Source: Lentisphaerae bacterium GWF2_44_16 | GTDB lineage: Bacteria > Verrucomicrobiota > Lentisphaeria > Victivallales > GWF2-45-14 | Assembly: GCA_001803225.1 (NCBI GenBank) | Contig: MHBF01000149.1 | Span: forward strand, 1 to 28,965 | Reading direction: 5' to 3' | DNA: 28,965 nt | Part shown: one piece after another, positions 1 through 22,550 of the stretch | Layout of the letters: every line of letters begins with the position of its first letter | Position numbering within the stretch: the first letter of the stretch is position 1 | Position numbers and translations under genes: made by a program | Notes under the pieces: model-generated | Told to the model about the DNA's origin: nothing | The model's input: only the letters and a program-made list of their open reading frames with translations | Database searches by the model: none

Positions 1-387
1 ACCTATTATACACAAAGGATTTCTCTTTTTTATGCCAAGACGGCGACGCCGATCAAAAATTCATTTACACAAGATATTGTACACTCTCTATTTTCAAGCT
101 CGACTGAGTTTACTACGATTCTATTCGATAAATTTAAGAGTCTGTCAAGAAACTCGGGAGCATATATAGGACGAGTTTTACTAGAAACATTTGAAAAAAC
201 ACTTGATAGACATCAATTAATCGAGCTAAGAGACTATTTACCCAGAGCAGATATATGGGAAAAAAGACAAATTTTGAAATTGCTTAAGAATGGTCTTTAT
301 GTTGGTGAATTTAATCCGATTTTTAAGAATTTTAGAATCAATGAAAGGGATGAGCTAATTGATTGCATCAAGAAAGATTATTTATAA
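1..387 (+). CDS. 3' end of a 5'-truncated ORF (hypothetical protein, last about 128 aa).
   Basis: Frame 1 is open from the window edge to TAA at 385-387. Composition is AT-rich and coding-like. The next gene's RBS (GGAGG 406-410) and ATG (418) follow 30 nt later, which suggests an operon. No recognisable motif. Confidence 0.4.
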   Translation, partial: TYYTQRISLFYAKTATPIKNSFTQDIVHSLFSSSTEFTTILFDKFKSLSRNSGAYIGRVLLETFEKTLDRHQLIELRDYLPRADIWEKRQILKLLKNGLYVGEFNPIFKNFRINERDELIDCIKKDYL

Positions 388-417
388 AATCAAAACAATT
401 AACGCGGAGGAAGATTT

Positions 418-3400
418 ATGAAATATTATATTTTATCAATAAGTGATTTGCATTTTTCTGGTTTATCCGAACAAAATCATGCAAAAAATTACATCGCACC
501 ACTCTCCCAAGTTATTTGTAGCCTGCCATTTGATGAAAAGACACATTTAATTATCCTTGTGGGAGGAGATGTAGCATTATATGGAAAAATAGCCGAATTT
601 GATCAAGCCAAGTTATTTTTTGAGGAACTGATCAACAGGATTATTGTCCATTTTCCAAATTTGCAGTACACTTTTGCTTTAGCGCCTGGAAACCACGATT
701 GTGATTTTTCAATCTATGAAAATGGCGAAGAAGAAATTAGAAAAAATATTATTTTGCCAAACGACAAACTACTCTCCCTATATGATAATAAAGATTTCAT
801 TAACCGAAAACTTTCAAACTATTTTTCGTTTCGAGATCAATTCCGATCAAAACACTTGGTTCAAAGTCATTTTTATTTTGACAGATACGAGTTTTTGGGT
901 GAAGGACATACACTCAATCTCGTTTCCTTCAATAGCTCCATTTCATACGATCCACTTTTCAATAACAATCGCGTAAGCGTCGATTCCAAGATGATTGATG
1001 ATAATATTGGCCTCCACAAGGACGAAATTAATATTTCCATCAGTCATTATCCGCTTGAATGGTTCGATAGGAATAAGACTGAATACTATTCTTCAATTCA
1101 GTCAAAAGCCAACATATTGATCACCGGACACGAGCATGAATATGAAAAAATTTATACTGTTGCAGACGGTTTTACAAAATGCTATGTTAGATTACCGTCC
1201 TTTCAGACCGTAAATCAAGAAAGTCGTTCGGGAATTGTAATATTGGATGTTGACTCTTGCACAGCGCAACTTGATGTGAAGCACTATATTTTTGACGGGC
1301 GCATTTATCAGCAAATTGAAGACCGGACTATGCCGGTCAATATTACTTCGACATTAATGATAAAAAATTCTATTCTACCAACAGATAGAAATTACTTTTG
1401 CAACCTTTTCGCTAGTAGCATGTCCCCAACGCAAAACAAAAAATTCATCAACTTTGAAGACGCATTTATTTCGCCTATTTGCGCAAAAATCACACTTAGT
1501 GATTTTGATGAAGAAAACAAGACTGAGTACCTCACTCATTCAGAGCTTTCTATCGATAGGTTTGGATCAGTTACTGTTTTTTCGGGGCCAAGCTTTTTTG
1601 GAAAAACGGTTCTTCTTAAGAAATACTACCTCGACGCCTACAGATTGGGGTATTTACCTATTTACATATCTTTTAGTGCCAAAAACAATCGAAAAGGGTA
1701 TATTGAGGAGGCAATCAAGAAATCTATCAAATCTGCCTATCCGAACGGGCGAGACTTTGTTGCACAGAACCAAGACAAAGTGGTTTTAATTATCGATGAC
1801 CTTCATTTTTATAAAGACAATATTGATGATTTTTTTGCCTATATCAACGAATATTCTTTTGGCAAAATCATCATTTCGATTAACCCAATTGAGTTTAACA
1901 CATTCAATGTTGAAAAGAGTTCTACTAAATATTTTGACTTGTACAGAATTCAGGCGTTTGGACATACGCAAAAATATGAGCTAGTACAAAGATGGGTTGA
2001 TCGTGATGGCGAACTTCAAGACGGGCATCAGAAGGACAAACTAATCTCTGAAATTCGGTCTCTGCTGCAACAGGTTTCTTCTATCGATGGATTCATGAAT
2101 ACCGCAGAACTCACCCTTATTTTTTTGGAAGCCTACAATGACATTAAGCCTCAGTCGTTGATGAATGGATCAAAGGGCGTATATTACGAATTTCTATTTT
2201 CGAAATATATACTTAGAATTGCGACCCTTTGTAAAATCGAACAATCATTCATAGACGAGTTCTTGGCCGAATATGCGTACTATATATTTAAAAATATTGA
2301 CCATAACTTATCCGACTTTGATACCAAATACTTGGAAGGCCACATTATTGATCAAGAAGAGTATTATAAGAATAAAACTCAACTCATTGAAGCTATGAAA
2401 GAAATTGACATTATTGACAAAGATACCGATTCGATTGAGTTTAAGCACTCGTATATAATCGCATATTTTGCAGCGAGATATTACGTTGCAAATTTTTCAA
2501 CGAAGAGTGATGAATTACGTGAATTAATCAAGCACACCGACGATTTAAATGCATCAAATGTGTTGCTTTTTGTGATGTACTTTACTAAGAACGAACAATT
2601 AGTAGATTCCATAGTTGATGTATGCAACTCTTTGTTTTTGAATGCGGGTGAAATACAACTCAATGATGATATAAACTTTATCAACTCATTTATTTGTGGT
2701 GTCAAGGACGTTGTTGAATATGGTTCAATAAGGGATAACAATAAAGAATTGTGTGCGTTTTTAGATAAAAAGTCTAGAGAAAAAGGAAACTTGAAGAAAT
2801 CAATCAAAGTAGAATTAAGTGAAGCAGAACAAAAAATCCAATCAGATTTCATCAGTTCCTATAAATTAAGAGAAATTATTCGTGAAGTTTTAAATCAGAC
2901 GAACACAAAATCAATTGTCGAAAAGCTGATCCCCGCGAATCTTTCACTTGGTTTACGGAAATGCGGTGACGTCGTAGAATATTTTAACAAATATATATGT
3001 ATGATAAATTCAAAAAACAAAAAAGAGTGGGAAGAAGAGCATCGGGAATATGAACAGAATATTTTACTATGGATTTCGCTTTTAGGAAAGGTTTTCTTGG
3101 ACCATTCCGAAAATTTAGCTCCTGCGAAATTTAACACATACGTTCGCTTATTACTTTCAAAAAAGGATACCGAAGCGTATAGACTACTCAACGCCTTATC
3201 CGAGTTCTACTCATCAAGACATGAGGAGGAAAAAAAGTATTACGGTTTTTACAGGTTGCTGTCTGAGTTTCGTAAAGAACACAATTATTTCGGGCTAGCT
3301 ATGCTCCATGCCGTTGTAGACCGAGAGGTTAACTATATAGGGATTGATGAAAAACATAAAAAGGAATTACTTGAAAAAGCCAAAGCTCCTACTTTACATT

Positions 3401-3504
3401 TGCAAGGAAAGGATTACAAAAAGAACCTTGATTCATCGAGAATTAATAAAAAAACAAGATTTGAATTTTTAAAAAGGTTGTTTAAAAAACAAAAACCCGA
3501 GTGA
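418..3504 (+). CDS. 1028-aa fusion: N-terminal calcineurin-like metallophosphoesterase (Mre11/SbcD-type), central P-loop NTPase, long helical C-terminal region. STAND-like candidate defense protein.
   Basis: GGAGG sits 7 nt upstream of ATG 418. Metallophosphoesterase motifs in order: SDLHFSG, GGDVALYG, APGNHD, ITGHEHEY. Walker A GPSFFGKT is at about nt 1581-1604 and Walker B VVLIIDD about 230 nt downstream. About 550 aa of helical, repeat-like sequence follows. The ORF is uninterrupted. Confidence 0.8.
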   Translation: MKYYILSISDLHFSGLSEQNHAKNYIAPLSQVICSLPFDEKTHLIILVGGDVALYGKIAEFDQAKLFFEELINRIIVHFPNLQYTFALAPGNHDCDFSIYENGEEEIRKNIILPNDKLLSLYDNKDFINRKLSNYFSFRDQFRSKHLVQSHFYFDRYEFLGEGHTLNLVSFNSSISYDPLFNNNRVSVDSKMIDDNIGLHKDEINISISHYPLEWFDRNKTEYYSSIQSKANILITGHEHEYEKIYTVADGFTKCYVRLPSFQTVNQESRSGIVILDVDSCTAQLDVKHYIFDGRIYQQIEDRTMPVNITSTLMIKNSILPTDRNYFCNLFASSMSPTQNKKFINFEDAFISPICAKITLSDFDEENKTEYLTHSELSIDRFGSVTVFSGPSFFGKTVLLKKYYLDAYRLGYLPIYISFSAKNNRKGYIEEAIKKSIKSAYPNGRDFVAQNQDKVVLIIDDLHFYKDNIDDFFAYINEYSFGKIIISINPIEFNTFNVEKSSTKYFDLYRIQAFGHTQKYELVQRWVDRDGELQDGHQKDKLISEIRSLLQQVSSIDGFMNTAELTLIFLEAYNDIKPQSLMNGSKGVYYEFLFSKYILRIATLCKIEQSFIDEFLAEYAYYIFKNIDHNLSDFDTKYLEGHIIDQEEYYKNKTQLIEAMKEIDIIDKDTDSIEFKHSYIIAYFAARYYVANFSTKSDELRELIKHTDDLNASNVLLFVMYFTKNEQLVDSIVDVCNSLFLNAGEIQLNDDINFINSFICGVKDVVEYGSIRDNNKELCAFLDKKSREKGNLKKSIKVELSEAEQKIQSDFISSYKLREIIREVLNQTNTKSIVEKLIPANLSLGLRKCGDVVEYFNKYICMINSKNKKEWEEEHREYEQNILLWISLLGKVFLDHSENLAPAKFNTYVRLLLSKKDTEAYRLLNALSEFYSSRHEEEKKYYGFYRLLSEFRKEHNYFGLAMLHAVVDREVNYIGIDEKHKKELLEKAKAPTLHLQGKDYKKNLDSSRINKKTRFEFLKRLFKKQKPE

Positions 3505-3540
3505 CAACGTATTATCGAAGATTCTTATATAACAACTCGA

Positions 3541-5262
3541 CTATAATATAACAACATTGTACCTGAGTGAGTTTTTATACTTTTGACAAAGGAATAGTCC
3601 ATCGGAGATTGTGGGCGTTATAGAAAACTCAAATCTTCTCGACGCAAACTCGGCATCGGAATACTCTTTATCTGTCGAAATGCAGAATACAATCTGCGTT
3701 CGACTGATTGCGATTATTCTATAGATGAAGATACGGAAGGTATCGACATCCAGTTCTTCAAAAGGCTTTGTCTGCCTGGCGAGGATTTTCTTCATCTGAG
3801 ACAGTTTTGACTCCTTTTGAAACTTGACCATAATCTGTTTCTCCGTTGCATTGATGTCATTCATCTTTGTTCGTATCTGACCATTCAATGCTTGATACTT
3901 TTGCATGAAGATCTCTTCAGACAAATCCGGAGTCGAAATCTTCAAATCGACTAGTTGAGCCAGTTGGGATTGAAGCTCGGATTTCTCTTTTTCGAGAGTT
4001 GCCAGTTTAACCTCGTGTTCACTAGGGATTACGTTTTTGTCAAAGGCTTTTTCAAGTAATTCCATCGTATTTGGATTGTTCCAGAATACTTCGTTCAGCA
4101 TTTGAAGACTTGCTCCTTCGACGGATTCTTGATAAAGGGCTTTTGCGCGACAATTGTGTTTACCCTCGACGTATCCCCCACATTGCTGCATAACGCGCGC
4201 TGAAGGGGTGCCGTAGTTCCAATAACGCCTTTTCAGGGCGCGACCGCATTCGTGACAAATGATGATGCCAGAGAACGGGTAACGGTATGTATACTTGGAT
4301 AGATTCTTATCCTTCCCGACCGTTTGCTTGGCTCTGGTTTCTTTGATTTGTTGGGCAAGTAGAAAAGTCTCCCGGTCAATGATTGGTTCGTGATTATCTT
4401 CTACATGAAACTTGGGAGCGATGTTATCGTTCTTCACTCGTTTGTGAGTTAGGTAATCCGTGGTGATGGTCTTCTGCATAATCAGATCTCCACAGTACTT
4501 TTCATTAGATAAAATGAAGTTGATGGTACTGTTTCGCCAGTAAGTTCTTCCTGCTCCGGTTTTGTATCCTTTGGCTTGGAGTAATTGACAGATGCGAGCC
4601 GGACCAATGCCGGAAACGTATAGCGAAAAGATTTCCTTGACGATTGCTGCTTGGTCCGGAATCGGAATCAGTTGCTTGGTCTCTTTGTCTCGTGTATAGC
4701 CCAAGAATCGCTTGTTATTGACGATGGGATCACCTTCACTGAATCGCTTGCGGATATTCCATTTGACGTTCTCACTGACGTTCCTGGCCTCTTCCTGGGC
4801 AATGGATGACATGATGGTTAATAAGAAGTCGACCTTGGTATCAGAAGAGTAGATGTTCTCTTTCTCGAAGTAGATTTCTACTCCGAGCGTTCTCAACTCG
4901 CGGATGTAATTGAGACAGTCAACCGTGTTACGTGTGAAGCGAGAAATTGACTTGGTCAGAATCAAATCGATTTCACCGTTTCTGGACGCTTCAATCATGG
5001 CGTTGAATTCTTTACGGTTCTTGGTGGAAGTACCGCTTAAGCCTTCGTCCGCATAAATCCGGACCATCTGCCATGTTGGGTTGGAGATGATTCGTTTGGT
5101 ATATTCGTCCACCTGCGCATCATAACTAGTTTTTTGTTCGATGTTATCAGTGGATACTCGACAATAGGCACAAACGCGTTTCTTGGTCGGAATGAAATTG
5201 CCGTTTTCGTTTTGTTCAAAGGTAATGACGGGTTTGATGATCTTGACTTGCTTATTTTGCAT
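3541..5262 (-). CDS. Large serine recombinase (serine integrase/transposase type).
   Basis: N-terminal resolvase-type catalytic domain with CAYCRVSTDNIEQ (catalytic Ser) and the DLILTKSISRFTRN region. Large recombinase domain. A Cys cluster (CHECG...CGGY...HNC) forms a zinc ribbon. Coiled-coil-like C-terminal region. The ATG at 5260-5262 (MQNKQVKII) is preferred over the upstream in-frame start at 5424. Confidence 0.85.
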   Translation of the reverse strand: MQNKQVKIIKPVITFEQNENGNFIPTKKRVCAYCRVSTDNIEQKTSYDAQVDEYTKRIISNPTWQMVRIYADEGLSGTSTKNRKEFNAMIEASRNGEIDLILTKSISRFTRNTVDCLNYIRELRTLGVEIYFEKENIYSSDTKVDFLLTIMSSIAQEEARNVSENVKWNIRKRFSEGDPIVNNKRFLGYTRDKETKQLIPIPDQAAIVKEIFSLYVSGIGPARICQLLQAKGYKTGAGRTYWRNSTINFILSNEKYCGDLIMQKTITTDYLTHKRVKNDNIAPKFHVEDNHEPIIDRETFLLAQQIKETRAKQTVGKDKNLSKYTYRYPFSGIIICHECGRALKRRYWNYGTPSARVMQQCGGYVEGKHNCRAKALYQESVEGASLQMLNEVFWNNPNTMELLEKAFDKNVIPSEHEVKLATLEKEKSELQSQLAQLVDLKISTPDLSEEIFMQKYQALNGQIRTKMNDINATEKQIMVKFQKESKLSQMKKILARQTKPFEELDVDTFRIFIYRIIAISRTQIVFCISTDKEYSDAEFASRRFEFSITPTISDGLFLCQKYKNSLRYNVVIL

Positions 5263-5687
5263 AATAAATGATTCCCTTCTATTTGGCGTACTATATACAT
5301 CACTCTGCAAGCAAAAATTATCAAGTCCTATTTCGATAACGATTGCTTTGTGAAAATGATGTTTCTTCACGATTTTGAGATAGTATACCAAATGGAAATA
5401 TGCATTCCTAGACGCCAGCGGCACAATCGTTCATAGATTGAACGAAATCGATTTACCGATAATACACGTGAACGGTGACGCCAAGTAGTGGTCATATATG
5501 CTTCAAGTAGCATTCAATACGCCGTCAATAGGTTGTCAACTGCACGCACCAAAAATTTGAGAAAATCGTTCTCAAACCAACACCTGTTTGCAGAAAATTA
5601 AACCATTTTTCTCAACCTGATTTTACTGGGTTAAAAGATGGATAATTGTACACATAAAATCGTATAAAATTCAAAAAACTCAAAAAT

Positions 5688-5792
5688 AGTTATTGTAGAC
5701 AATAATTGGGTTAATGACAACACAAACGAGGATATTGACGACAATAACCGAGTTATTGCATACATTAATCGAGTTAATGTCGACAGAAGTAC
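5688..5792. repeat. Five tandem 21-bp iteron-like direct repeats (consensus rGTTAwTGnmgACAATAAncG), each containing a short palindrome.
   Basis: Units start at 5688, 5709, 5730, 5751 and 5772, giving an exact 21-bp phase. GTTAWTG and ACA are conserved in all five units. The array sits in a 1-kb non-coding gap between the recombinase and hsdR. Confidence 0.6.
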
Positions 5793-6332
5793 ACAAAAAG
5801 AAAAAGAAAAGGAAATTGATGTATTAGATTAACAAGATAAAGGGTAAAATCCAGTCGGTTTTACCGGTAAACAATTACAGTTTTTAAAGACGATTTTTGA
5901 AAGAATAATTCCCGAAACCATCAAACATGTGAGTATATGCATTTTTGTGAATACCCACAGTTGAGTAAATGGAATTTGGTGTGAGCGTAAATTTGCACTA
6001 ACCCTTGGATAACTTAAATTGCAATCGCGCGATAGGATTTTCCTTTTTCCGAAGGCTCCCCCGGTCACGGAGAATAACATACTATGGGTACCGCATAAGG
6101 GGACGGTTAAATTATGGGAGGCAAAAATTTTGAAAATCTGTAAAATGATTCTCGTGAACATTCATTAACCATATAAGCCAAAAGCACAATATTCAATATT
6201 GACTATCAATTCAATGACAATTTTGATAAAATGGTGATTATGATAGATTTTTTCTATTGTCTTCAATTTTGTTGTGGAAATTAAAGGGAAAAACGAATCT
6301 TGGATATTGAAAGGGGTATTATCTTGAGTAGA

Positions 6333-8666
6333 ATGACTGAAGAAGATGTCAAAAACCGTCTCATTACTCCAGCAATCGATGGTGCCGGGTGGCAAAAAGA
6401 ACAAGTGTATATGGAATACTTTTTTACCAACGGCCAAATGATTGTTCGCGGAGATACTGTCAAACGAGGAAAACAGAAAAAAGCTGACTATGTTCTTGTT
6501 CGACAAGAAGGCAATATTCCACTTGCGATAATCGAAGCAAAAGACAACGAGCATTCACTTGGTGCCGGAATGCAACAAGCGATTGACTATGCAACGATCC
6601 TAAATATACCATTTGCCTATTCATCTAATGGCGATGGATTCTTGGAACACGATTTTTTAACCGGCGCAGAAAAAGAAATATCCCTTTCCGATTTTCCGTC
6701 TGAACAACAATTGTGGGACAGATATAAGACTGCAAAGGGAATTGATAAACAACAAGAAAATATCATATCAGAACCCGAACACTTTGATTTGTTTTCTAAA
6801 AAGCGTCCTCGATATTATCAACGAATTGCAATCAATAAAACGATGGAAGCCATCGCCAAAGGTCAAAAACGAATTCTCTTGGTCATGGCGACAGGAACCG
6901 GCAAAACATTTACCGCTTTCCAAATTTGTTATAAACTTTTGAAAACCAAAACCGCAAAACGGATTTTGTATTTGGTGGATCGGAACATTTTGATTGATCA
7001 GACCATGCAACAGGATTTCCGCCCATTTGAAAAAGTAATGACGAAGATTCAAGATAAAATCTTGGATAGCTCGTACGAAATTTATATGAGTCTCTATCAT
7101 CAACTCGCCGGGGACGAAGGATGCGAACCGTTCCGTGAGTTCAAACCGGAATTCTTTGACTTAATCATCGTTGATGAAGCACATCGTGGCAGCGCGAAGG
7201 AAGAATCAAAGTGGCGGAAGATACTTGACTACTTTAAGGATGCCATTCATATCGGTATGACGGCCACTCCGAAAGAGACAAAGGAAATCAGTAACATCAC
7301 CTACTTTGGAGACCCTGTTTACACATATAGCTTGAAACAAGGCATCGACGATGGCTTCCTTGCTCCCTATAAAGTGATTCGCATAGGGCTGAACAAAGAC
7401 CTTGAAGGTTGGCGTCCCCCGATGGGCAAGTTGGATGTGGATGGCAATCCCGTTGAGGACAGAGAATATAACGCGAAGGATTTCGATCGCTCTTTAGTGA
7501 TTGACGAACGCACCAAAGCTGTTGCTAATCGAATCACGAAATGGCTTCATGCCAATGATCGTTTCTCAAAAACAATTGTTTTCTGCGTTGATATTGAACA
7601 CGCTGAAAGAATGAGACAAGCTCTTATCAACGAAAACAAAGACCTTGTTGCTCAAAATCCAAAGTACATCATGCGCATCACAGGAGATAACCCCGAGGGC
7701 AAAGCCCAATTGGATTACTACATCGATCCAAACGAAAAGTATCCGACCATCGTTACAACATCAAAGCTTATGACCACGGGAGTGGATTGTAAGACCACCA
7801 AGTTGATTGTTCTCGATAGCAATATCAATTCCATGACTGAGTTCAAACAGATCATTGGACGAGGAACGAGATTGTATCCAGAATTTGGAAAGAACTATTT
7901 CACCATCATGGATTTCAGAGATGTATGCCGCCTATTTGCGGATCCGGCGTTCGATGGAGATCCGGTTGTGATTATTGAGGGTGGCGACGGCGGAGAAAAC
8001 TGGAATCCAAATCCTCCCGTTATTGGTGGCGATGGTGATGAACCTAATGGTGGAGAACCCGTGCCGCCGATTGGACCAACTCCCCCCAAACCACCATTCA
8101 GAAAAGTGCGTGTTCGAGGTGTTGACGTGACCATCTTGAATGAAAGAGTTCAATACTATGACAAAGACGGGAAGCTCATCACAGAAAGCATTCGTGATTA
8201 CTCCAAACGAAATATCCTGAATGACTATGCCACCATGGATGATTTTATCCTTATGTGGACCAAATCGGAGAAAAAGCAAGCCATCATTGAGGAACTTCAG
8301 GAACATGGCGTGCTTTTGGATTCGCTTCGGCAGGAATCAGGAAAAGTCATCGATGATTTTGACCTAATCCTTCATGTGGCTTTTGATAAGAAGCCGTTAA
8401 CGAAGAAAGAGCGAATCGATAACGTGTTGAAGAAAGGATATCTAGCAAAGTATTCGCCTGTTTGCCAACAGGTGCTTTCAGCTTTGCTCGATAAATATAT
8501 GGATGGCGGTATTTCTGAATTGGAAGACACCAGGATTTTGGATAACGCTCCATTCGATCGGTTTGGAAGTCCGAGAAAAATCGCATCGCAATTTGGTGGG
8601 AAAAATGAGTATGTTTTTGCAGTAAGAGAACTTCAAAACCAGATATATCAGACATCTGTCAACTAG
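6333..8666 (+). CDS. hsdR: Type I restriction enzyme R subunit (HsdR).
   Basis: N-terminal PD-(D/E)xK nuclease region (IEAKD) with the typical HsdR start MTEEDVKNRLITPAIDGAGW. Helicase motif I MATGTGKT and motif II IIVDEAH. Q-motif-like RYYQRIAI. HsdR-type C-terminal region. The start could alternatively be TTG at 6300 or 6324. An unusual Pro/Gly-rich low-complexity insert lies at about 7960-8100. Confidence 0.85.
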   Translation: MTEEDVKNRLITPAIDGAGWQKEQVYMEYFFTNGQMIVRGDTVKRGKQKKADYVLVRQEGNIPLAIIEAKDNEHSLGAGMQQAIDYATILNIPFAYSSNGDGFLEHDFLTGAEKEISLSDFPSEQQLWDRYKTAKGIDKQQENIISEPEHFDLFSKKRPRYYQRIAINKTMEAIAKGQKRILLVMATGTGKTFTAFQICYKLLKTKTAKRILYLVDRNILIDQTMQQDFRPFEKVMTKIQDKILDSSYEIYMSLYHQLAGDEGCEPFREFKPEFFDLIIVDEAHRGSAKEESKWRKILDYFKDAIHIGMTATPKETKEISNITYFGDPVYTYSLKQGIDDGFLAPYKVIRIGLNKDLEGWRPPMGKLDVDGNPVEDREYNAKDFDRSLVIDERTKAVANRITKWLHANDRFSKTIVFCVDIEHAERMRQALINENKDLVAQNPKYIMRITGDNPEGKAQLDYYIDPNEKYPTIVTTSKLMTTGVDCKTTKLIVLDSNINSMTEFKQIIGRGTRLYPEFGKNYFTIMDFRDVCRLFADPAFDGDPVVIIEGGDGGENWNPNPPVIGGDGDEPNGGEPVPPIGPTPPKPPFRKVRVRGVDVTILNERVQYYDKDGKLITESIRDYSKRNILNDYATMDDFILMWTKSEKKQAIIEELQEHGVLLDSLRQESGKVIDDFDLILHVAFDKKPLTKKERIDNVLKKGYLAKYSPVCQQVLSALLDKYMDGGISELEDTRILDNAPFDRFGSPRKIASQFGGKNEYVFAVRELQNQIYQTSVN

Positions 8667-8678
8667 GGAGGACATAAC

Positions 8679-10154
8679 ATGAGTATTAACGGATTTGTGA
8701 AATCAATACAAAACATTATGAGAGGAGATAGCGGTATCAATGGCGATGCGCAACGCATCGAACAAATGACCTCGCTTCTCTTTTTGAAAGTCTATGATGT
8801 CAAAGAAGGGGATTGGGAGTTTCATGATGAAAACTATGTATCCATCATTCCAGAAAAACTGAGATGGCGGAATTGGGCAAAGGACAAAAAAGACGGAAAA
8901 GCAATGACGGGGCAAACACTGCTTGATTTCGTCAATAATGAGCTGTTTCCGTCGATTAAGGAACTCAAGATTACCGAGAGCACACCCATTAAGAAAGCCA
9001 TTGTCAAGGCCGTTTTTGAGGATAGCAACCAATACATGAAAGATGGAGTTCTCTTACGGAAAGTTGTTAACGAGATCGATTCAATCGAATTTGACGAGTA
9101 TAACGAAAAACACGCATTTGGTGAAATCTACGAAACCATTCTCAAGAGCCTTCAGAACGCAGGAAATGCAGGCGAATTCTATACTCCGCGTGCGGTAACT
9201 GATTTCATGGTCAAAATGATTGAACCGAAACTTGGCGAGAGAATCGCTGATTTTGCCTGTGGAACCGGCGGATTTTTGACATCATCGCTTAAGGTTCTTG
9301 AAGAACAAAAAAAGACGGTAACCGACATCGATTTATATAATCAAAGTGTCTTCGGAATTGAAAAAAAGCCACTTCCCTATTTGCTTGCAATAACAAACAT
9401 GCTTCTCCATGATATTGATAGTCCCCAAATATTCCACGGCAATTCTCTTGAACGAAATGTTCGGGAATATCAAGAAAACGAAAAGTTCGACGTTATTCTG
9501 ATGAATCCTCCTTATGGTGGAACAGAAAGCGAAAGCGTCAAAATGAATTTTCCAACCGATCTTCGCAGTAGCGAGACGGCCGACCTCTTTATGTCTCTTA
9601 TAATGTATCGTCTAAGGAAAAACGGAAGAGCTGCTGTCATTATTCCTGATGGGTTTCTATTTGGAACGGACAACGCAAAGTCAGCAATTAAAAAGAAATT
9701 GCTTGAAGAATTCAATTTGCACACAGTCGTTCGAATGCCTTCAAGCGTCTTTTCGCCCTATACACCCATCACAACAAATATCCTCTTTTTCGATAATTCA
9801 AAGAAGACCGATCAGGTATGGTTTTATCGTGTAGATATGCCAAAAGGATATAAGCACTTCTCAAAAACAAAACCCATGAAGGTTGATCATTTTGATGAAT
9901 GTGTTAGTTGGTGGAATAATCGAGAACAAAAAAAAGACAGTGTATCCGACGCACTCAAGGCTCAAGTATATAGCGTTTCAGAAATAATTGACAGAAGCTA
10001 TGATATCGATCTTTGTGGATATCCAACCATAGGAGAGGAAATTTTTTCGCCGGAAGAGACAATTCGACTTTTTCACGAAAAAAGAGATTCGCTAAATACG
10101 AAAATTGACAAAAGATTAGCAGAGATTGAAACTCTTTTGGGGCTGAAAAAGTGA
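8679..10154 (+). CDS. hsdM: Type I restriction-modification N6-adenine DNA methyltransferase (HsdM).
   Basis: Strong RBS AGGGAGG precedes the ATG. AdoMet-binding motif FACGTGGFL and catalytic NPPYGG. HsdM N-terminal domain. Its stop overlaps the hsdS GTG start. Confidence 0.92.
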   Translation: MSINGFVKSIQNIMRGDSGINGDAQRIEQMTSLLFLKVYDVKEGDWEFHDENYVSIIPEKLRWRNWAKDKKDGKAMTGQTLLDFVNNELFPSIKELKITESTPIKKAIVKAVFEDSNQYMKDGVLLRKVVNEIDSIEFDEYNEKHAFGEIYETILKSLQNAGNAGEFYTPRAVTDFMVKMIEPKLGERIADFACGTGGFLTSSLKVLEEQKKTVTDIDLYNQSVFGIEKKPLPYLLAITNMLLHDIDSPQIFHGNSLERNVREYQENEKFDVILMNPPYGGTESESVKMNFPTDLRSSETADLFMSLIMYRLRKNGRAAVIIPDGFLFGTDNAKSAIKKKLLEEFNLHTVVRMPSSVFSPYTPITTNILFFDNSKKTDQVWFYRVDMPKGYKHFSKTKPMKVDHFDECVSWWNNREQKKDSVSDALKAQVYSVSEIIDRSYDIDLCGYPTIGEEIFSPEETIRLFHEKRDSLNTKIDKRLAEIETLLGLKK

Positions 10155-11629
10155 TAGCGTCATCATTGAAAAAATCAGCAATTCAAGCCGCGATTAAGGG
10201 AAAAACGACTCATCAACTTTCAACTGATGGAAATGCAAATGAATTGTTGACCAAAGTGAAAAATGAAATAATGCTTTTGGCGATGAGAAAGGATATAAAA
10301 AAGCCGAAAATAATGCCTCCAATTTCGGAAGAAGAGATTCCTTTTGAAATTCCAAACAATTGGCTTTGGGTCCGTTTGGGTGAAGTATCTTTCAATCATG
10401 GACAAGTCACCCCTTTTTGCGAATTTACTTATATTGATATTTCGTCAATTGATAATTTGAATAATCGCCTTGGAAATATGACTACGATGAAACCGGAAAA
10501 TGCTCCATCACGAGCGCGAAAAATTGTGGTTGGAGGCGATGTAATTTACTCAACCGTAAGACCATATTTGCACAATATTTGTGTAATTGATAATAATATT
10601 AACCCGAGTCCAATTGCAAGCACGGGATTTTCTGTGATTTGTACGCCCTTTGAAATATTGAATATATACCTATTCTATGTTTTTTTATCGCCGATGTTTG
10701 ATAATTATGCGAATGACTTAGAAAATTCTAAGGGGGTAGCATACCCGGCGATAAATGATGATAAGTTTCAAAAAAGCTTAATTCCGCTTCCTCCACTTGC
10801 TGAACAATACCGAATCGTCCAACAATTAAAAGAGTTGTTGCCCAATCTAGAAAAACTTGAAAAGGACGAGATAAAGCTTGATGAATTGCAACAGCAATTC
10901 TCGATACAGATTAAGCAATCAATACTTCATCACGCAATCCAAGGAAAACTTACAATTCAATCTCTTGAGGACGGGAACGCAAAATTACTTGTCGATAAAA
11001 TACGAACTACTAGGAAAAAAAAGATTAATGAAGAAAAAGACCAAAATAAAACTTTGTTTTCGGCGATTTCGGAGGATGAAATTCCGTTTGAAATCCCTGA
11101 TAATTGGTGCTGGATTCGACTAGGTGAGATAGTGAAGATTATAGGAGGAACCTCTTACAATAAATCCCAAGAATCATCCCATGGAATTAGAGTTATTCGA
11201 GGGGGCAATATTATTCAGGGGGAATCTGAATTAGCAATTAAGGATGATGATATTTTTGTTGACCAAGTACTATTTGATTTTCAAAAACAAATTCAACTGA
11301 ATGATATTATTGTTGTTTCTTCTACCGGAAGCAAACAAGTAATAGGAAAAGCAGCAATTGTGAAAGAAGAGGTTGAAAATTGCCAAATCGGAGCATTTCT
11401 AAGGATTATTCGATCATACTCTCCGGAGGTTGTACCGTATATCTCATTGATATTCCAGTCAAATTATTATAGGGAGAGAATTCGTGATTTAATTTCCGGA
11501 ACAAATATTTTTAATATAAAGAATGATTTTTTTTCTTCAATGCCAATTCCACTCCCCCCTCTAGCCGAGCAAATCAGAATCGTTGAAAAGAATAGTGCCA
11601 TTCAATTTGTAATTCAGCAAATAAGCTAG
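10151..11629 (+). CDS. hsdS: Type I restriction-modification specificity subunit (HsdS) with two target-recognition domains.
   Basis: GTG start overlaps the hsdM stop (GTGA). Two TRDs, each followed by a conserved helical repeat (IPLPPLAEQYRIV... and PIPLPPLAEQIRIV...). EIPFEIPxNWxWxRLGE is duplicated at the start of each TRD. Confidence 0.85.
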   Translation: MIASSLKKSAIQAAIKGKTTHQLSTDGNANELLTKVKNEIMLLAMRKDIKKPKIMPPISEEEIPFEIPNNWLWVRLGEVSFNHGQVTPFCEFTYIDISSIDNLNNRLGNMTTMKPENAPSRARKIVVGGDVIYSTVRPYLHNICVIDNNINPSPIASTGFSVICTPFEILNIYLFYVFLSPMFDNYANDLENSKGVAYPAINDDKFQKSLIPLPPLAEQYRIVQQLKELLPNLEKLEKDEIKLDELQQQFSIQIKQSILHHAIQGKLTIQSLEDGNAKLLVDKIRTTRKKKINEEKDQNKTLFSAISEDEIPFEIPDNWCWIRLGEIVKIIGGTSYNKSQESSHGIRVIRGGNIIQGESELAIKDDDIFVDQVLFDFQKQIQLNDIIVVSSTGSKQVIGKAAIVKEEVENCQIGAFLRIIRSYSPEVVPYISLIFQSNYYRERIRDLISGTNIFNIKNDFFSSMPIPLPPLAEQIRIVEKNSAIQFVIQQIS

Positions 11630-11673
11630 CGTTTTTGCCGTACCTTCTTCATTCGATAAAAGGAGTATTACAT

Positions 11674-12576
11674 ATGACCAGTAAAGAAAGCCCAGAATCC
11701 TTAATTAAATTAGACCCAAAGATTTTCTCTTCCGCCCATATAAACTTCTTTTTAGGTGCGGGAGTAAACGGATCATCATTTCCACAAATGTCTGGTTTTA
11801 AGGAAACATTGAGCAAAGCTGTTGAATATTTGGGTAAACCAATTGTGAGTTTTGAATCCGATATAGAGAGTCTATCCGAAGGCAAAAAGAAAGTCGTATT
11901 AAACGTTTTCAAAAAGGAACTAGAGAAGTTCTCAAACGATATTGACTTTGAATCAGCGTCAATAAAAGATATTGAGTCAATGTTTCAAGGTGTGAATTCT
12001 CTCATTCTTGAGTCCGAAAACAGAACACTGACAATGAAACAGGTAAATATCTATACGACTAATTATGATTGTATAGTTGAAAAAACTCTTAATAAAATTG
12101 GATTATTATGTAATGTTCTGTCTTCGAGCAATCTTGAAAGCCGAGACAAGTTTTTTGAGTTAATTGGGTATGACTACGGGATAAAAAAATACATTCCGAC
12201 TTTTTTGGTTTCTAAAATTCACGGAGACATCGATAATCCCGTTTTACCTAGCAAAAACAAGTATGATGAAGCGTTGGAAGCAAAACGATTTGAGATTTTA
12301 TTCAGAATGAAGTCACAATTGTCACGTTTCAATTCGGTACTTATTGTTATTGGTTATTCGGGAAATGATAGACACATTAATGGTATTATTAAAGATTGTC
12401 TTTCATTTGGATTAACAGTTTATTGGTTTAGGTATGCTTCGACAGAGAAAATACCAGATGAATTTATTCAAAAAATCTTCATCATCGATCAACCAGACCA
12501 ACAAAAACAGGAAAACACGACAAAACTATTCTGTGATATGGTGAATAAAACATGGGAAAAACCGTTGGAAGAATAA
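11674..12576 (+). CDS. SIR2-like (SIR2_2 family) NADase-type protein, the Sir2 component of the Sir2-HerA defense system.
   Basis: AAAGGAG RBS sits 6 nt upstream of ATG 11674. The track's upstream TTG start at 11635 is rejected. Motifs FFLGAGVNGSSFP, TTNYDCIVE and KIHGDID match the SIR2-like Gly-rich/N-D/H catalytic pattern. The stop overlaps the herA start by 25 nt. Confidence 0.75.
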   Translation: MTSKESPESLIKLDPKIFSSAHINFFLGAGVNGSSFPQMSGFKETLSKAVEYLGKPIVSFESDIESLSEGKKKVVLNVFKKELEKFSNDIDFESASIKDIESMFQGVNSLILESENRTLTMKQVNIYTTNYDCIVEKTLNKIGLLCNVLSSSNLESRDKFFELIGYDYGIKKYIPTFLVSKIHGDIDNPVLPSKNKYDEALEAKRFEILFRMKSQLSRFNSVLIVIGYSGNDRHINGIIKDCLSFGLTVYWFRYASTEKIPDEFIQKIFIIDQPDQQKQENTTKLFCDMVNKTWEKPLEE

Positions 12577-14306
12577 TTGAGGTCAAAGGATTGTCGGTCA
12601 AAGCAAGGCTTAACGAATTGCTTCCTCCATATTTAGTTAAAAATGGCTCATACGAGAATTCGCCTAAAATAAACGGATTCCTGAAATCAAAAGTCGGCCT
12701 AGATACGATAATTTGTCAAGTGGTCGGGGAAATAAGTGAAGAGAAAAACGGAATAGTTGAAGGACATGTACTTGAACTTCAAGTTAAGGGATACATATCT
12801 GGAAAATCATTCATTCAAGGGTTAAGAATGCTACCTATCGTCTCTGCTTCTGTACAACTGCTTGATGATGTTGATATGTTGTCTATTTATAACGACAAAG
12901 CCGAGAAAACCATTGATATTGGTAACGATTTATTCGATATAAACAAACCAATCAAAGTCAATATTGATAACTTGATACCGTCCCATATAGGAGTATTCGG
13001 TAACACGGGATCAGGAAAGTCGAACACTCTGACAAGAATACTTCGAGAATATGAAAGTATTATATGTCAATCCAAAACCAATAGAGGAAAATTCATTGTT
13101 TTTGACATAAATAATGAGTATACAAAAAACGCGATTTGTGATGAAAGCAAAAAAACAATTTATCGATTAAAGACCCGCTCAAACAGCGGAGACAAAGTCC
13201 CGTTAAACATCACCTCTTTGACGGAAGACAACTTTGTTGTGCTTATGAATGCCTCTGAAAAAACTCAAGTTCCTGCAATTAAAAATGCGTATAAATGGGC
13301 TTTTGCGAGCGACGAAGATCGACGAGAAAAATCGTATTACCTTAATCAAGTCAAATCTATGCTGACCAATGCTAAAAAGTCTTTGTTTAATTCCATGAGG
13401 CACTATCTGAAAGACTATTTTTCAAACATTGATCATTTTAAGTATCACACATTACAAAATAATTTCTTTTTTGATGATGGACACTCGCGAATATACATAG
13501 AAAACTCTCTTTTTAATGTGATGCTTAATTCAATTGATCTTGATTTGCCAATCGAGCCACTTGACAGATTCATATTTGAATTGTATTTTGCAGTCGCTCA
13601 AGAAAACGAAAACGGAGTTCAACTGGACTTCATGATGCCACTCATTTCAAGGGCAAACAAACTTCTTTCTGACTTTAAGAAGGTATTTGATTTTTCCATA
13701 AGATCTGACGACAAGAACATTATTTTCAATAAGAAGAATATTTGCGTTATTCAATTAGGCGATGTAAACAAAGATATGAAAGAGATTATTCCGTCCCTTA
13801 TTTCGAGCACTATCTTCGATTCTTTATCTCAAAAGAAAGATGATAAAGGAGAGATTGTCCAAATAATAAGTATTGTGGTTGATGAAGCTCATAACATACT
13901 GTACGATGAACCCGGGCAGACAGCTTCACATACAAAAGTACTTGAAGTATTTGAAAAAATTGTTAAAGAAGGTCGAAAATTTGGGTGCTTTTTAATGCTT
14001 GCAAGTCAAAGACCAAGCGACATTTCTCAAACCATAATTTCCCAACTTCATAATTACTTTATTCACAAGTTGGTTAACCCCTCTGATATTCAAAAAATTC
14101 GTAAAGCGGTTGCTTACCTTGATGAAAATTCTATGGATTTTCTGACGGTACTTGCACCTGGTGAGTGTATTGTCTCTGGAACGGCATTTCAAATGCCAAC
14201 ATTTCTTTATGTAACTCAAGTCAACTTGGAAAACAGACCTAACAGCGAAAATGTGAAACTCTTTGGAAATAATGGACTATTTATCAGAGACAATGTTGAC
14301 GAATAG
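12552..14306 (+). CDS. herA: HerA-like helicase/ATPase, partner of the SIR2 protein.
   Basis: N-terminal HAS-barrel-like MGKTVGRIIEVKG. Walker A GVFGNTGSGKSNT and Walker B IVVDEAHN. Size about 584 aa. Translationally coupled to the upstream SIR2 gene. Confidence 0.8.
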   Translation: MGKTVGRIIEVKGLSVKARLNELLPPYLVKNGSYENSPKINGFLKSKVGLDTIICQVVGEISEEKNGIVEGHVLELQVKGYISGKSFIQGLRMLPIVSASVQLLDDVDMLSIYNDKAEKTIDIGNDLFDINKPIKVNIDNLIPSHIGVFGNTGSGKSNTLTRILREYESIICQSKTNRGKFIVFDINNEYTKNAICDESKKTIYRLKTRSNSGDKVPLNITSLTEDNFVVLMNASEKTQVPAIKNAYKWAFASDEDRREKSYYLNQVKSMLTNAKKSLFNSMRHYLKDYFSNIDHFKYHTLQNNFFFDDGHSRIYIENSLFNVMLNSIDLDLPIEPLDRFIFELYFAVAQENENGVQLDFMMPLISRANKLLSDFKKVFDFSIRSDDKNIIFNKKNICVIQLGDVNKDMKEIIPSLISSTIFDSLSQKKDDKGEIVQIISIVVDEAHNILYDEPGQTASHTKVLEVFEKIVKEGRKFGCFLMLASQRPSDISQTIISQLHNYFIHKLVNPSDIQKIRKAVAYLDENSMDFLTVLAPGECIVSGTAFQMPTFLYVTQVNLENRPNSENVKLFGNNGLFIRDNVDE

Positions 14307-14397
14307 TAAGTCTGTCTTGCTATGTTTTTTTCACGGTATTCACAAGTCAAAAAACCATATGCCCTTCTTGTCGCATCGAAAACTGCAGTTATAGAAT

Positions 14398-14458
14398 TAT
14401 GTTATTTTGTGACGTTTTTCAACTCGATAATAGCAATATGTCTCTTTGACTTCAACGA
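14398..14458 (+). promoter_or_regulatory. Copy (a) of a roughly 60-bp repeated promoter-like module (ATGTTATTtTgTGACg...AATAGCAAT...CTTTGACTTCAACG).
   Basis: Aligns over its full length with the copies at 16113, 19042 and 19122. Carries a -35-like TTGACA/GTGACG and a -10-like TAGCAAT about 17 nt downstream. The first mobile-element copy begins 73 bp downstream, and the next same-strand gene is the 174-aa ORF at 15379. Confidence 0.4.
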
Positions 14459-14530: not shown

Positions 14531-15079
14531 TGCATATACCGACCGACTTGAGCCACCGAACCGACGAGGGTTGAGCCACGAGACCGATGGCGTGAGCCAC
14601 AAATTCCATCACATATTCAACGTATTGCATTTTGTGCACAAAGTGCTCGTTGTAATCCTTAGGGAATGTGGCGAACGGATTTGTAGGTTTCTGGTTTTTT
14701 CTATGAGACTGTACTATTTGTATTGAAGATTTTTCTTTATCGATTTGTCTCTATGTTCCAGTCTTTTTGTAGTAAGCTATGCAGAACTGCGTATTATCCA
14801 CGTTTTTGACTTTTTCAACCCTTCGTTTCTGGCACGTCCAACAAAAATTGATACCTTTGTCTTGCGTCCAACGAAGTACATATATCGACGTATTACAGAG
14901 ACTGGTGTGGCAGTTAAGCGTACCCATCATAGTCGACATAAACGTATATATAGGGTAGATGCGAATCAAAAAAATACCCTCCAAAGGGTGGCTCCCACTT
15001 GTCGGATTGATGGCTCATTTTCATCGGAAGGGTGGCTCACTCTCGTCGGTCGGTGGCTCAAAGTGCGTCGGAATATCCA
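14531..15079 (+). mobile_element. 549-bp non-autonomous (MITE-like) transposable element, copy 1, with Tn7/Mu-like ends.
   Basis: Perfect 5-bp direct repeat CTGAT at 14526-14530 and 15080-15084. Termini are 5'-TG...CA-3' with imperfect inverted repeats of about 27 bp (TGCATATACCGACCGACTTGAGCCACC vs TGGATATTCCGACGCACTTTGAGCCACC). Subterminal GTGGCTCA/TGAGCCAC motifs recur with 22-bp period, 3 at the left end and 4 at the right. About 90% identical to the inverted copy at 28277-28836. No intact transposase ORF. Confidence 0.7.
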
Positions 15080-15903: not shown

Positions 15904-16112
15904 TGTGTAAGCCTTATATAGGAGGTTTGTATTGTCGAATCGATATTAAGAAAGTGTGTTATTGAGTCGGGGTCATAGCCGGCTCCTGCGTTATTGCCAT
16001 TGAATCGAAGCAATGTAGATCCAAAATACTTATGCTCTTTCTTTACATTTTCCCATTGCTCTCAAACATTTGACCTCTCTGACTTCATCACTATGTATAG
16101 AAATAGAATCAG

Positions 16113-16170
16113 GTTATTTTTCGACATTTTCCAACCCCCAAAAATAGCAATTAACGTCACTGATTTCAAT
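16113..16170 (+). promoter_or_regulatory. Copy (d) of the repeated promoter-like module, upstream of the 139-aa/CHAT operon.
   Basis: GTTATTTTTCGACATTTTCC...AAAATAGCAATTAACGTCACTGATTTCAAT aligns with modules a, b and c. A partial extra copy (TGACCTCTCTGACTTCATCAC) lies at about 16070-16093. Confidence 0.4.
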
Positions 16171-19103: not shown

Positions 19104-19121
19104 ACCCGTAGACATAGTAAT

Positions 19122-22512: not shown

Positions 22513-22550
22513 CGGTGTCGAAACGCAAGTGTTCATCTGCGGAGGATACA

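What the first reader, a model, noticed from the sequence alone, without database searches (positions are those of the whole stretch)
418..3504. 1028-aa fusion of a metallophosphoesterase, a P-loop NTPase and a helical repeat region: a candidate STAND/Avs-like single-gene antiviral protein.
The N-terminal 300 aa carry the full set of calcineurin-like phosphoesterase motifs (DxH, GDxxxxG, GNHD, GHxH), the Mre11/SbcD-type nuclease fold. Walker A (GPSFFGKT) and Walker B (VVLIIDD) follow, then about 550 aa of helical sequence that could be a sensor domain. The tripartite arrangement of effector, NTPase and C-terminal sensor mirrors antiviral STAND NTPases. I cannot place this specific metallophosphoesterase effector combination in a named family. 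It lies beside a serine recombinase, a type I RM and Sir2-HerA, and may be co-transcribed with the truncated upstream ORF (1-387), which could be a partner.
Basis: partly seen in the sequence, partly recalled or inferred. Interest (0 to 1): 0.7.

Follow-up and report, generated by a model that had tools for sequence, protein, structure and literature searches.

The report
Divergent DS-8-like phosphoesterase–NACHT antiphage protein
The 1028-residue gene is real and is a distant relative of DS-8, a single-protein phage-defence system recently validated in E. coli that joins a metal-dependent phosphoesterase to an NLR-type ATPase switch, so it is a new, divergent member of a known kind rather than a new system.

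Summary
The ORF at 418-3504 (+) is confirmed. All metallophosphoesterase metal-ligand motifs and both Walker motifs are present and conserved across homologues.

The protein matches NCBIfam NF053861 'DS8_antiphage' end to end (E 7.5e-105), but at 352 bits, below the 790-bit equivalog cut-off. DS-8 is a one-gene E. coli defence system (DefensePredictor, Science 2026). Its defence is lost in D52A, N84A and K375A mutants. These residues align with D51, N92 and K396 here.

The window protein belongs to a small sister subclade at 25-33% identity. It is only 14-26% identical to mainstream DS-8 proteins, least so in the C-terminal helical domain.

Structure prediction and fold searches place the central module with NACHT-type NLRs. 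The N-terminal domain sits closer to small-molecule phosphodiesterases and phosphatases than to Mre11/SbcD.

Five of six subclade loci lie beside known defence systems. No partner gene is conserved. The upstream ORF is a 133-codon Drt8-like remnant at an assembly break, not a partner.

Most likely mechanism (inferred): a phage trigger causes NTPase-driven oligomerisation, which activates the phosphoesterase. The substrate is unknown.

This is a new member of a known kind, of modest interest.

The parts
406..410 (+). Shine-Dalgarno GGAGG, 7 nt upstream of the ATG
   Evidence: Read directly in the sequence.
418..3504 (+). Whole gene, 1028 codons plus stop: DS-8-like metallophosphoesterase-NACHT protein
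   Evidence: ORF list and translation. NF053861 DS8_antiphage E 7.5e-105, aa 8-988 against HMM positions 2-992 of 994. The identical protein is deposited as HAU65900.1 / OGV48289.1.
418..1347 (+). aa 1-310: calcineurin-like metallophosphoesterase domain, the putative effector. Metal-ligand residues are D10, H12, D51, N92, H210, H238 and H240; H93 also lies in the conserved GNHD motif.
1348..1557 (+). aa 311-380: low-confidence linker between effector and NTPase
   Evidence: pLDDT 45-65 in the full-length model.
1558..1962 (+). aa 381-515: P-loop nucleotide-binding domain. Walker A is G390-T397 (K396 at nt 1603-1605). Walker B is V455-D461 (D460 at nt 1795-1797).
   Evidence: Weak Pfam AAA_7 and AAA_14 hits. 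Conserved columns. K396 aligns with DS-8 K375. Fold matches to NLRC4, NOD2 and NLRP3.
1963..2493 (+). aa 516-692: helical domain and winged-helix domain of the STAND module (beta-hairpin at 666-675; motif F675-K-H677-S-Y...Y683-F-A-A)
   Evidence: Secondary structure of the model. Column counts. This region carries Pfam nSTAND_NTPase4 in mainstream DS-8 proteins but gives no such hit here.
2494..3387 (+). aa 693-990: C-terminal all-helical domain, the putative trigger sensor. It contains the family-invariant R847.
   Evidence: Model. It is the region most diverged from mainstream DS-8 (14-20% identity, against 24-34% within the subclade). No internal repeats.
3388..3501 (+). aa 991-1028: disordered basic tail (32% Lys+Arg)
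   Evidence: pLDDT below 50. Composition.

Best explanation
The gene encodes a single-protein antiphage sensor-effector of the DS-8 kind. It has an N-terminal binuclear metallophosphoesterase, a central NACHT-like STAND NTPase and a C-terminal helical sensor.

Proposed mechanism:
1. In uninfected cells the protein is a nucleotide-bound, autoinhibited monomer.
2. During infection the C-terminal helical domain recognises a phage-derived trigger, most likely a phage protein.
3. Nucleotide exchange or hydrolysis at the Walker A/B site drives oligomerisation.
4. Oligomerisation brings the phosphoesterase domains together and switches them on.
5. The activated enzyme hydrolyses a phosphodiester or phosphoanhydride substrate. 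A nucleotide-type small molecule (NTP/dNTP, NAD/ADP-ribose-like or cyclic nucleotide) is more likely than DNA.
6. Phage replication is blocked, probably at the cost of the infected cell.

Shown here: the architecture, intact catalytic and Walker residues, homology to DS-8, the fold assignments, and a solitary gene in defence islands.
Taken from the DS-8 paper: both domains are needed for defence.
Inferred: the trigger, oligomerisation, the substrate and the abortive outcome.
For: - Full-length collinear match to NF053861 DS8_antiphage (E 7.5e-105). Mainstream homologues of the window protein score 870-1120 bits on the same model.
- DS-8 (WP_032203427.1) protects E. coli from many phages (for example Bas1 5.6 logs, Bas19 4.1, Candy 3.7). 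It loses defence in D52A, N84A and K375A mutants. BLASTP of its first 399 aa against the window protein (23% identity, E 1e-20) aligns these with D51, N92 and K396.
- All metal ligands and Walker residues are invariant in 48- and 25-sequence alignments.
- The same NTPase-helical module (aa 373-766) occurs with a TIR domain in place of the phosphoesterase on Vibrio and Streptococcus plasmids. This effector swapping is typical of STAND defence proteins.
- Context: the gene lies in a low-GC island (34.5% against 47-59% for the 3' genes) with a Drt8 remnant, type I RM, SIR2-HerA, a BovA-like gene and a PD-(D/E)XK gene.
- Subclade relatives lie next to Lamassu plus type I RM, a type I RM shufflon, McrBC/GmrSD/DpnII, and AbiH.
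- The neighbours of 18 mainstream loci include type I RM, MADS, DarT, Hachiman, Hhe, Mokosh and DRT genes.
Against: - No experiment exists for this protein or its subclade.
- Its score on the DS-8 model (352 bits) is far below the curated equivalog cut-off (790). It lacks a detectable Pfam nSTAND_NTPase4 signature.
- It differs from the mainstream family at conserved sites: H211 is Tyr throughout the subclade, and P560, P563 and Q571 are also changed. Function could therefore differ.
- One subclade member (P0121) sits among housekeeping genes.
- Trigger, oligomerisation and abortive infection are inferred by analogy with Avs and bNACHT proteins.
Confidence: 0.72

Rival explanations
1. Same STAND-gated logic, but the phosphoesterase is an Mre11/SbcD-like nuclease. 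Once activated it degrades phage or host DNA, as the nuclease effectors of Avs1-4 do. This is what the first reader implied.
For: - The domain belongs to the same superfamily as Mre11/SbcD.
- Nucleases are the commonest Avs effectors (background knowledge).
- The basic C-terminal tail could bind nucleic acid.
Against: - At sequence level the best solved relatives are GpdQ (E 5e-6) and Lmo2642 (E 1.4e-4).
- The DS-8 authors' HHpred also pointed to SMPDL3B.
- No Rad50/SbcC-like partner is encoded nearby.
- No Mre11-type capping domain could be recognised between the phosphoesterase core and the NTPase. That segment is a low-confidence linker.
Confidence: 0.15
2. The phosphoesterase does not kill or starve the cell. 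Instead it destroys a specific signalling nucleotide, such as a cyclic (oligo)nucleotide made by the phage or the host. This is analogous to SMPDL3A cleaving cGAMP, and is the idea floated by the DS-8 authors.
For: - Structural neighbours include cyclic-nucleotide phosphodiesterases (Rv0805, Lmo2642) and SMPDL3B.
- The DS-8 paper suggests a cyclic-nucleotide substrate.
- Kibby et al. class calcineurin-like phosphoesterases on bNACHT proteins as 'nucleotide-signal generating/degrading' effectors.
Against: - No cyclase or CBASS/Pycsar/CRISPR type III signal generator is conserved next to the gene in the window or in the six subclade loci.
- DS-8 protects on its own in E. coli MG1655 against many unrelated phages. 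That is easier to explain by a generally toxic or depleting activity.
- A degrading enzyme placed in the effector position that TIR occupies in relatives suggests a comparable depleting role.
Confidence: 0.2
3. The gene is not an active defence system. It is either a non-immune STAND regulator or housekeeping phosphoesterase, or a decaying relic in a degrading island.
For: - The score is below the equivalog cut-off.
- The adjacent upstream gene is a remnant.
- MITE-like repeats are present in the island.
- One relative lies among housekeeping genes.
Against: - The 3087-nt ORF is intact in a 34.5% GC region and is identical in several independent assemblies.
- Every catalytic and Walker residue is conserved.
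- The subclade keeps about 30% identity over all four regions, which indicates selection on the whole protein.
- Five of six subclade loci are beside defence genes.
Confidence: 0.08

Closest known systems
DS-8 (E. coli WP_032203427.1; NCBIfam NF053861 'DS8_antiphage'; DefensePredictor, Science 2026, PMC13092281)
   Same: - One-gene system of about 1000 aa with the same order of domains: phosphoesterase, NACHT-like NTPase, helical C-terminus.
- Collinear HMM alignment over aa 8-988.
- The residues essential in DS-8 (D52, N84, K375) are conserved as D51, N92 and K396.
- Association with defence islands.
   Different: - Only 23% identity to DS-8 over the first 400 aa.
- 352 bits against a cut-off of 790.
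- No Pfam nSTAND_NTPase4 hit.
- Subclade-specific H-Y-P instead of H-H-P after motif IV, and the conserved P-x-x-P of the first helical domain is lost.
- The C-terminal domain is 14-20% identical to mainstream members.
- No experimental data.
Bacterial NACHT (bNACHT) and antiviral STAND (Avs) proteins
   Same: - Tripartite logic of effector, STAND NTPase and sensor.
- Interchangeable N-terminal effectors: TIR-bearing relatives share the same NTPase module.
- Fold similarity to NLRC4, NOD2 and NLRP3, and weakly to Avs5 and Avs4.
- Calcineurin-like phosphoesterases were already listed as bNACHT effectors.
   Different: - No Avs or bNACHT model of PADLOC matches. The only PADLOC hit is the candidate PDC-S60.
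- The C-terminal domain is short (about 300 aa) and shows no TPR, LRR or WD40 repeats.
- The trigger is unknown.
SMPDL3A/B, acid sphingomyelinase, Rv0805, GpdQ, Lmo2642 and purple acid phosphatase (small-molecule metallophosphoesterases)
   Different: Sequence identity is 10-20%. Those enzymes are free-standing or secreted and are not fused to an NTPase switch. No substrate has been assigned here.
DS-9A (first gene of the two-gene DS-9 system; NF053862)
   Same: Homologous phosphoesterase domain (E 9.4e-12, aa 4-174). The domain is also essential for defence in DS-9.
   Different: DS-9 pairs the phosphoesterase with a HAD phosphatase and has no STAND NTPase.

Membership tests
DS-8 (NF053861) | N-terminal calcineurin-like phosphoesterase with a complete set of metal ligands | tested here: met
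   PF00149 E 9.5e-9. D10, H12, D51, N92, H210, H238 and H240 are invariant in the family.
DS-8 (NF053861) | Conservation of the residues shown to be essential in DS-8 (D52, N84, K375) | tested here: met
   BLASTP to the first 399 aa of WP_032203427.1 aligns them with D51, N92 and K396.
DS-8 (NF053861) | Collinear, full-length match to the family HMM | tested here: met
   aa 8-988 against HMM 2-992 of 994, one stretch, E 7.5e-105.
DS-8 (NF053861) | Score at or above NCBI's curated equivalog cut-off (790 bits) | tested here: not met
   351.7 bits. Mainstream homologues score 870-1120 bits, and the nearest relative P0002 scores 384. It should be called DS-8-like, not a DS-8 equivalog.
DS-8 (NF053861) | Pfam nSTAND_NTPase4 (PF24406) signature in the winged-helix region, as in mainstream members | tested here: not met
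   Present in P0003, P0005, P0023 and P0041. No hit in the window protein at E up to 1 or in P0002 at E up to 0.01.
DS-8 (NF053861) | Acts as a single gene with no conserved partner | tested here: met
   Flanking genes differ in all six subclade loci. The upstream ORF has no homologue in 43 related loci. The downstream gene is convergent.
DS-8 (NF053861) | Protects against phage | not testable with these tools
   Needs expression and plaque assays.
STAND / NACHT NTPases | Walker A GxxxxGK[ST] and Walker B hhhhDD | tested here: met
   G390-T397 and V455-D461, conserved.
STAND / NACHT NTPases | Nucleotide-binding domain followed by a helical domain and a winged helix, with a fold matching NLR proteins | tested here: met
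STAND / NACHT NTPases | C-terminal repeat-type sensor (LRR, TPR or WD40) | tested here: inconclusive
   All-helical, but no repeat family in Pfam and no internal repeat by self-BLAST.
STAND / NACHT NTPases | Trigger-induced oligomerisation | not testable with these tools
   Needs biochemistry or cryo-EM.
Avs1-5 (AVAST) | Match to an Avs family model | tested here: not met
   PADLOC returned only PDC-S60 (E 7.4e-21, aa 342-771). Structural similarity to Avs5 and Avs4 is weak (E 2e-5 to 4e-4).
Mre11/SbcD nucleases | Closest structural and sequence neighbours are Mre11/SbcD, with a Rad50/SbcC partner | tested here: not met

The most novel reading that the evidence does not exclude
The window protein and its roughly 15-20 cluster relatives could be a functionally distinct lineage of phosphoesterase-NACHT immune proteins. 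The grounds are the subclade-wide His-to-Tyr change next to the motif IV metal ligand (H-Y-P for H-H-P), a remodelled first helical domain, and a C-terminal domain barely alignable with mainstream DS-8. Such a lineage would recognise a different phage trigger and hydrolyse a different substrate. If the substrate were an abundant nucleotide, it would add a new depletion chemistry, a metallophosphoesterase NTP/NAD-type hydrolase, to bacterial abortive infection. It would also give a tractable handle on the unknown substrate of the whole DS-8 family.
Probability: 0.15. Interest if true: 0.6.

Novelty: new member of a known kind. Interest (0 to 1): 0.3.

Why it matters
DS-8 is one of the first systems showing that a calcineurin-like phosphoesterase can be the output of a bacterial NLR-like immune receptor, and its substrate and trigger are unknown.

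A member at about 23% identity from an uncultivated lineage still keeps every catalytic and ATPase residue. This marks which positions are under selection across the whole family. These include the unexplained invariant R847 in the C-terminal domain and the subclade-specific H211Y. It also supplies a contrasting sequence for substrate and trigger studies.

The gene also lies in a compact mobile defence island. The recombinase core of that island is 94% conserved between two metagenomes, while the defence cargo on both sides differs. This is a small example of cassette turnover. None of this changes current concepts, so the finding is useful but incremental.

Tried and rejected
- **Upstream ORF as a partner: rejected.** A contig extending 53 nt further shows an in-frame stop and a 133-codon maximum. 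It matches only the last ~100 positions of PADLOC Drt8. Its first 35 codons are shared with another contig of the same sample that then runs into housekeeping genes. It has no homologue beside other family members.
- **Avs membership: no model match**.
- **Locus scan with the 48-sequence alignment failed** because there was no conserved stretch. It was redone with a two-sequence alignment.
- **Phage genomes:** tblastn found no homologue.
- **Full DS-8 sequence:** attempts through cluster look-ups failed. Only the first 399 aa were recovered, from a supplementary table.
- **Nature 2026 STAND survey (PMC13581612):** the main text does not mention phosphoesterase effectors, and no supplements were held.
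- **Literature on YydB/YydD:** nothing useful.
- **Sequence searches against solved structures:** the single protein gave nothing significant. The family profile gave only generic P-loop hits and short phosphoesterase hits.
- **Promoter/terminator scan** of 1-6400 was not above shuffled expectation for promoters and showed no terminator in the 36-nt gap after the gene.
- **Rfam** gave no match in the window.
Full report
**Observation.**
The window has an ATG-initiated ORF at 418..3504 on the + strand encoding 1028 residues. A GGAGG sits 7 nt upstream of the ATG.
- D10-L-H12
- G50-D51-VALY-G56
- G91-N92-H93-D94
- H210
- G237-H238-E239-H240
- Walker A G390-PSFFG-K396-T397
- Walker B V455-VLII-D460-D461

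In an alignment of the protein with 47 homologues these positions are invariant or nearly so. Pfam's Metallophos model matches aa 5-242 above its gathering score. An intact 3.1-kb ORF in 34.5% GC DNA that is identical in several independent assemblies is not a chance feature.

**Family.**
NCBIfam gives a single collinear match of aa 8-988 to positions 2-992 of the 994-position model NF053861 'DS8_antiphage' (E 7.5e-105, 351.7 bits). There is also a weaker N-terminal match to DS9_1.

DS-8 is a system discovered with DefensePredictor (PMC13092281). It is a single E. coli protein with a metallophosphatase domain and a NACHT domain. [quoted passage not shown] The supplement names the protein (WP_032203427.1, 1014 aa) and the mutants (D52A, N84A, K375A). 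It also gives the first 399 residues.

BLASTP of that fragment against the window protein gives 23% identity over 422 columns (E 1e-20). DS-8 D52, N84 and K375 align with D51, N92 and K396. In the authors' initial screen DS-8 lowered plating of many unrelated phages (Bas1 5.6 logs, Bas19 4.1, Candy 3.7, Bas11 2.6, T4 and T5 about 1.2-1.3).

**Position within the family.**
The window protein is not a typical member.
- Its score is less than half the curated equivalog cut-off of 790 bits. Seven mainstream homologues score 870-1120 bits.
- An exhaustive phmmer search of 1.84 billion cluster representatives found 1692 relatives at E<=1e-3 and 991 at E<=1e-10. Only about 18 representatives (P0002, P0121-P0138) align over the whole length at 25-33% identity. 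Mainstream proteins align at 22-25%, mostly only to about residue 760-860.
- Region by region, identity to the eight closest subclade members (P0002, P0121-P0127) is about 23-38% everywhere. To mainstream members it is 21-26% (phosphoesterase), 22-30% (nucleotide-binding domain), 16-25% (helical/winged helix) and 14-20% (C-terminal domain).
- The subclade has Tyr for the otherwise conserved His after the motif IV ligand (H-Y-P rather than H-H-P). It lacks the Pfam nSTAND_NTPase4 signature found in mainstream proteins.
- The window protein alone also replaces the near-invariant P563.
- All metal ligands, the Walker residues and an unexplained Arg (R847) in the C-terminal domain are invariant across both groups.

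I therefore call it DS-8-like: a member of the phosphoesterase-NACHT kind, but not a DS-8 equivalog by NCBI's threshold.

**Structure.**
An AlphaFold2 model built on the 48-sequence alignment has mean pLDDT 79 and pTM 0.66. Its parts are:
- an alpha/beta sandwich (aa 1-300)
- a poorly defined linker (311-380)
- a P-loop alpha/beta domain (381-515)
- a helical domain and a winged helix with a beta-hairpin (516-692)
- an all-helical C-terminal domain (693-990)
- a disordered basic tail

The effector is a calcineurin-like phosphoesterase that resembles small-molecule phosphodiesterases somewhat more than the Mre11/SbcD nucleases. The C-terminal half is helical, but I found no repeats. About 180 of its residues belong to the NTPase module rather than to a sensor.

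**Context.**
The gene lies in a low-GC stretch (genes at 32-42% GC up to about 20 kb, against 47-59% beyond). That stretch is packed with defence genes:
- a Drt8-like fragment (1-387)
- a type I RM system (6300-11629)
- SIR2-HerA (11635-14306)
- a BovA-like CHAT protein (16754-18847)
- a reverse-transcriptase-associated PD-(D/E)XK-like protein (19358-20131)

A large serine recombinase is encoded convergently 36 nt downstream (3541-5424). That recombinase is 94% identical to the one next to the nearest full-length relative, P0002, in another metagenome. DNA similarity (86%) covers only window 3550-6137. The DS-8-like genes on one side are 34% identical. The systems beyond them differ: Lamassu there, the Drt8 remnant here, and different type I RM genes on the other side.

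Other subclade members are flanked by a type I RM shufflon, by McrBC/GmrSD/DpnII, by AbiH or, in one case, by housekeeping genes. Among 164 ORFs within 5.5 kb of 18 mainstream family members, PADLOC models at E<=1e-10 detect type I RM, MADS, DarT, Hachiman, Hhe, Mokosh, DRT-associated and several candidate systems. I did not compute a background rate, so this is qualitative.

Plasmid copies occur in Paenisporosarcina and Clostridium botulinum. No phage genome in the collection carries one.

**The upstream ORF.**
A contig of the same sequence reaching 53 nt further has an in-frame TAA followed by an ATG, so the ORF has at most 133 codons. It has no Pfam match and matches only positions 389-483 of the 493-position PADLOC Drt8 model.

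All assemblies that carry the gene break within about 120 nt of this point. Another contig from the same sample starts at the same base, shares 142 nt (two mismatches) and then continues into housekeeping genes. No homologue of the ORF is found next to any of the other 43 loci.

It is best read as the 3' remnant of a disrupted reverse-transcriptase defence gene at a repeat or strain-variable junction, not as a partner. The 30-nt gap to the DS-8-like gene means read-through transcription remains possible. The promoter scan was uninformative.

**Mechanism.**
What is shown:
- the architecture
- the conserved catalytic and ATPase residues
- homology to a system in which both activities are required
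- the existence of relatives in which a TIR domain replaces the phosphoesterase in front of the same NTPase module (aa 373-766, 25% identity)

That replacement places the phosphoesterase in the effector position.

From established knowledge of Avs, bNACHT and NLR proteins I infer the following. The C-terminal domain binds a phage-derived trigger. The NTPase drives oligomerisation. Proximity activates the phosphoesterase.

The substrate is unknown even for DS-8. Given the structural neighbours, I favour a nucleotide-type small molecule (bulk NTP/NAD-type depletion, or a cyclic nucleotide) over DNA. The margin is not decisive.

**Novelty.**
Calcineurin-like phosphoesterases were listed among N-terminal effectors of bacterial NACHT proteins in 2022. 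DS-8 was validated experimentally in 2025-26, and NCBI already has a model for it.

The window protein is therefore a new, strongly divergent member of a known kind. The deposited copies carry conflicting labels, Lentisphaerae and Candidatus Uhrbacteria, so the host assignment is uncertain. A specialist would not be surprised by it. Its value lies in the comparative information it adds to a family whose biochemistry is still open.

Noticed in passing
window 1-387 (and L001 1-440, L046 1-142): The upstream ORF has at most 133 codons and resembles only the C-terminal ~100 positions of PADLOC Drt8. Every assembly breaks within ~120 nt of here. A second contig of the same sample shares the first 142 nt (2 mismatches) and then runs into CotH, hexokinase and transporter genes. 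This points to a repeat or a strain-variable island junction near window position 89.
   Followed up: partly
window 3541-6137: The large serine recombinase gene plus ~700 nt upstream is 86% identical in DNA (94% in protein) to a JGI metagenome contig (L003). The defence genes on both sides differ: the DS-8-like genes are 34% identical, with Lamassu there against the Drt8 remnant here, and different type I RM genes. The pattern is a conserved recombinase core with exchangeable defence cargo.
   Followed up: partly
window 14531-15079 and 28277-28836: There are two copies of a ~550-nt element in inverted orientation (91-97% complementary), 13.2 kb apart. Each has ~25-nt terminal inverted repeats and internal 22-nt TGAGCCAyC units. 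The second copy is flanked by a perfect 47-nt direct repeat (28231-28277 and 28839-28885). The element is MITE-like and has no Rfam match. The pair brackets the BovA-like gene and the higher-GC genes.
   Followed up: partly
window 14388-14458, 16100-16130, 19031-19181: A ~30-nt motif is repeated directly (GAyATAGnAAyAnGTTATTnTTTGACAnTTT and a companion AATAnCAATA...TTTGACTTCA). It sits in intergenic regions ahead of several island genes and may be a shared promoter or operator.
   Followed up: no
window 16324-18847: A 697-aa protein has a CHAT domain and a PADLOC BovA (Borvo) match (E 5e-28). It is preceded by an overlapping 146-codon ORF with no family match, so this may be a two-gene variant.
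   Followed up: no
window 19358-20131: A 257-aa ORF matches PADLOC RTasPDDEXK (a DRT-associated nuclease, E 9e-11) and the candidate PDC-S61. No intact reverse transcriptase was detected among the ORFs of at least 100-170 codons that were scanned in the window.
   Followed up: no
window 20291-28082: GC content jumps from 32-42% to 47-59% at about 20.3 kb. The higher-GC part encodes a membrane protein, an ADP-ribosylglycohydrolase (21649-22512), a flavin reductase, an HTH regulator, a GNAT and an SPFH protein. An ADP-ribosylglycohydrolase beside a SIR2- and TIR-rich island may or may not be related to defence.
   Followed up: no
L047 3317-5938 (Vibrio parahaemolyticus plasmid pVPHB2014-1); also a Streptococcus plasmid, and P0050: The NTPase-plus-helical module of the DS-8 family (window aa 373-766) occurs behind a TIR domain instead of the phosphoesterase. 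One metagenomic protein (P0050, 1233 aa) carries TIR, phosphoesterase and nSTAND4 together.
   Followed up: partly
PDB 9a6c chain B (Foldseek hit of the full-length model): The best Foldseek match (E 1.2e-10, 546 columns) is an integrative model named YydD-YydB. I recall, but did not verify, that these are Bacillus subtilis proteins. This could be a split, two-gene version of the same kind of system. The literature search gave nothing.
   Followed up: partly
window 2956-2958 (codon R847): An Arg in the C-terminal helical domain (L-G-L-R) is invariant in all 48 aligned family members and in both subclades, although the surrounding domain is the least conserved part of the protein. Its role is unknown.
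   Followed up: no
whole window: The two identical deposited DS-8-like proteins (HAU65900.1, OGV48289.1) show only a Lentisphaerae bacterium GWF2_44_16 label in the look-up. The 106-aa upstream ORF on the 28,877-bp contig, the length of the DNBC01000011.1 record, is labelled Candidatus Uhrbacteria. The bin-level taxonomy of this island is therefore unreliable.
   Followed up: no
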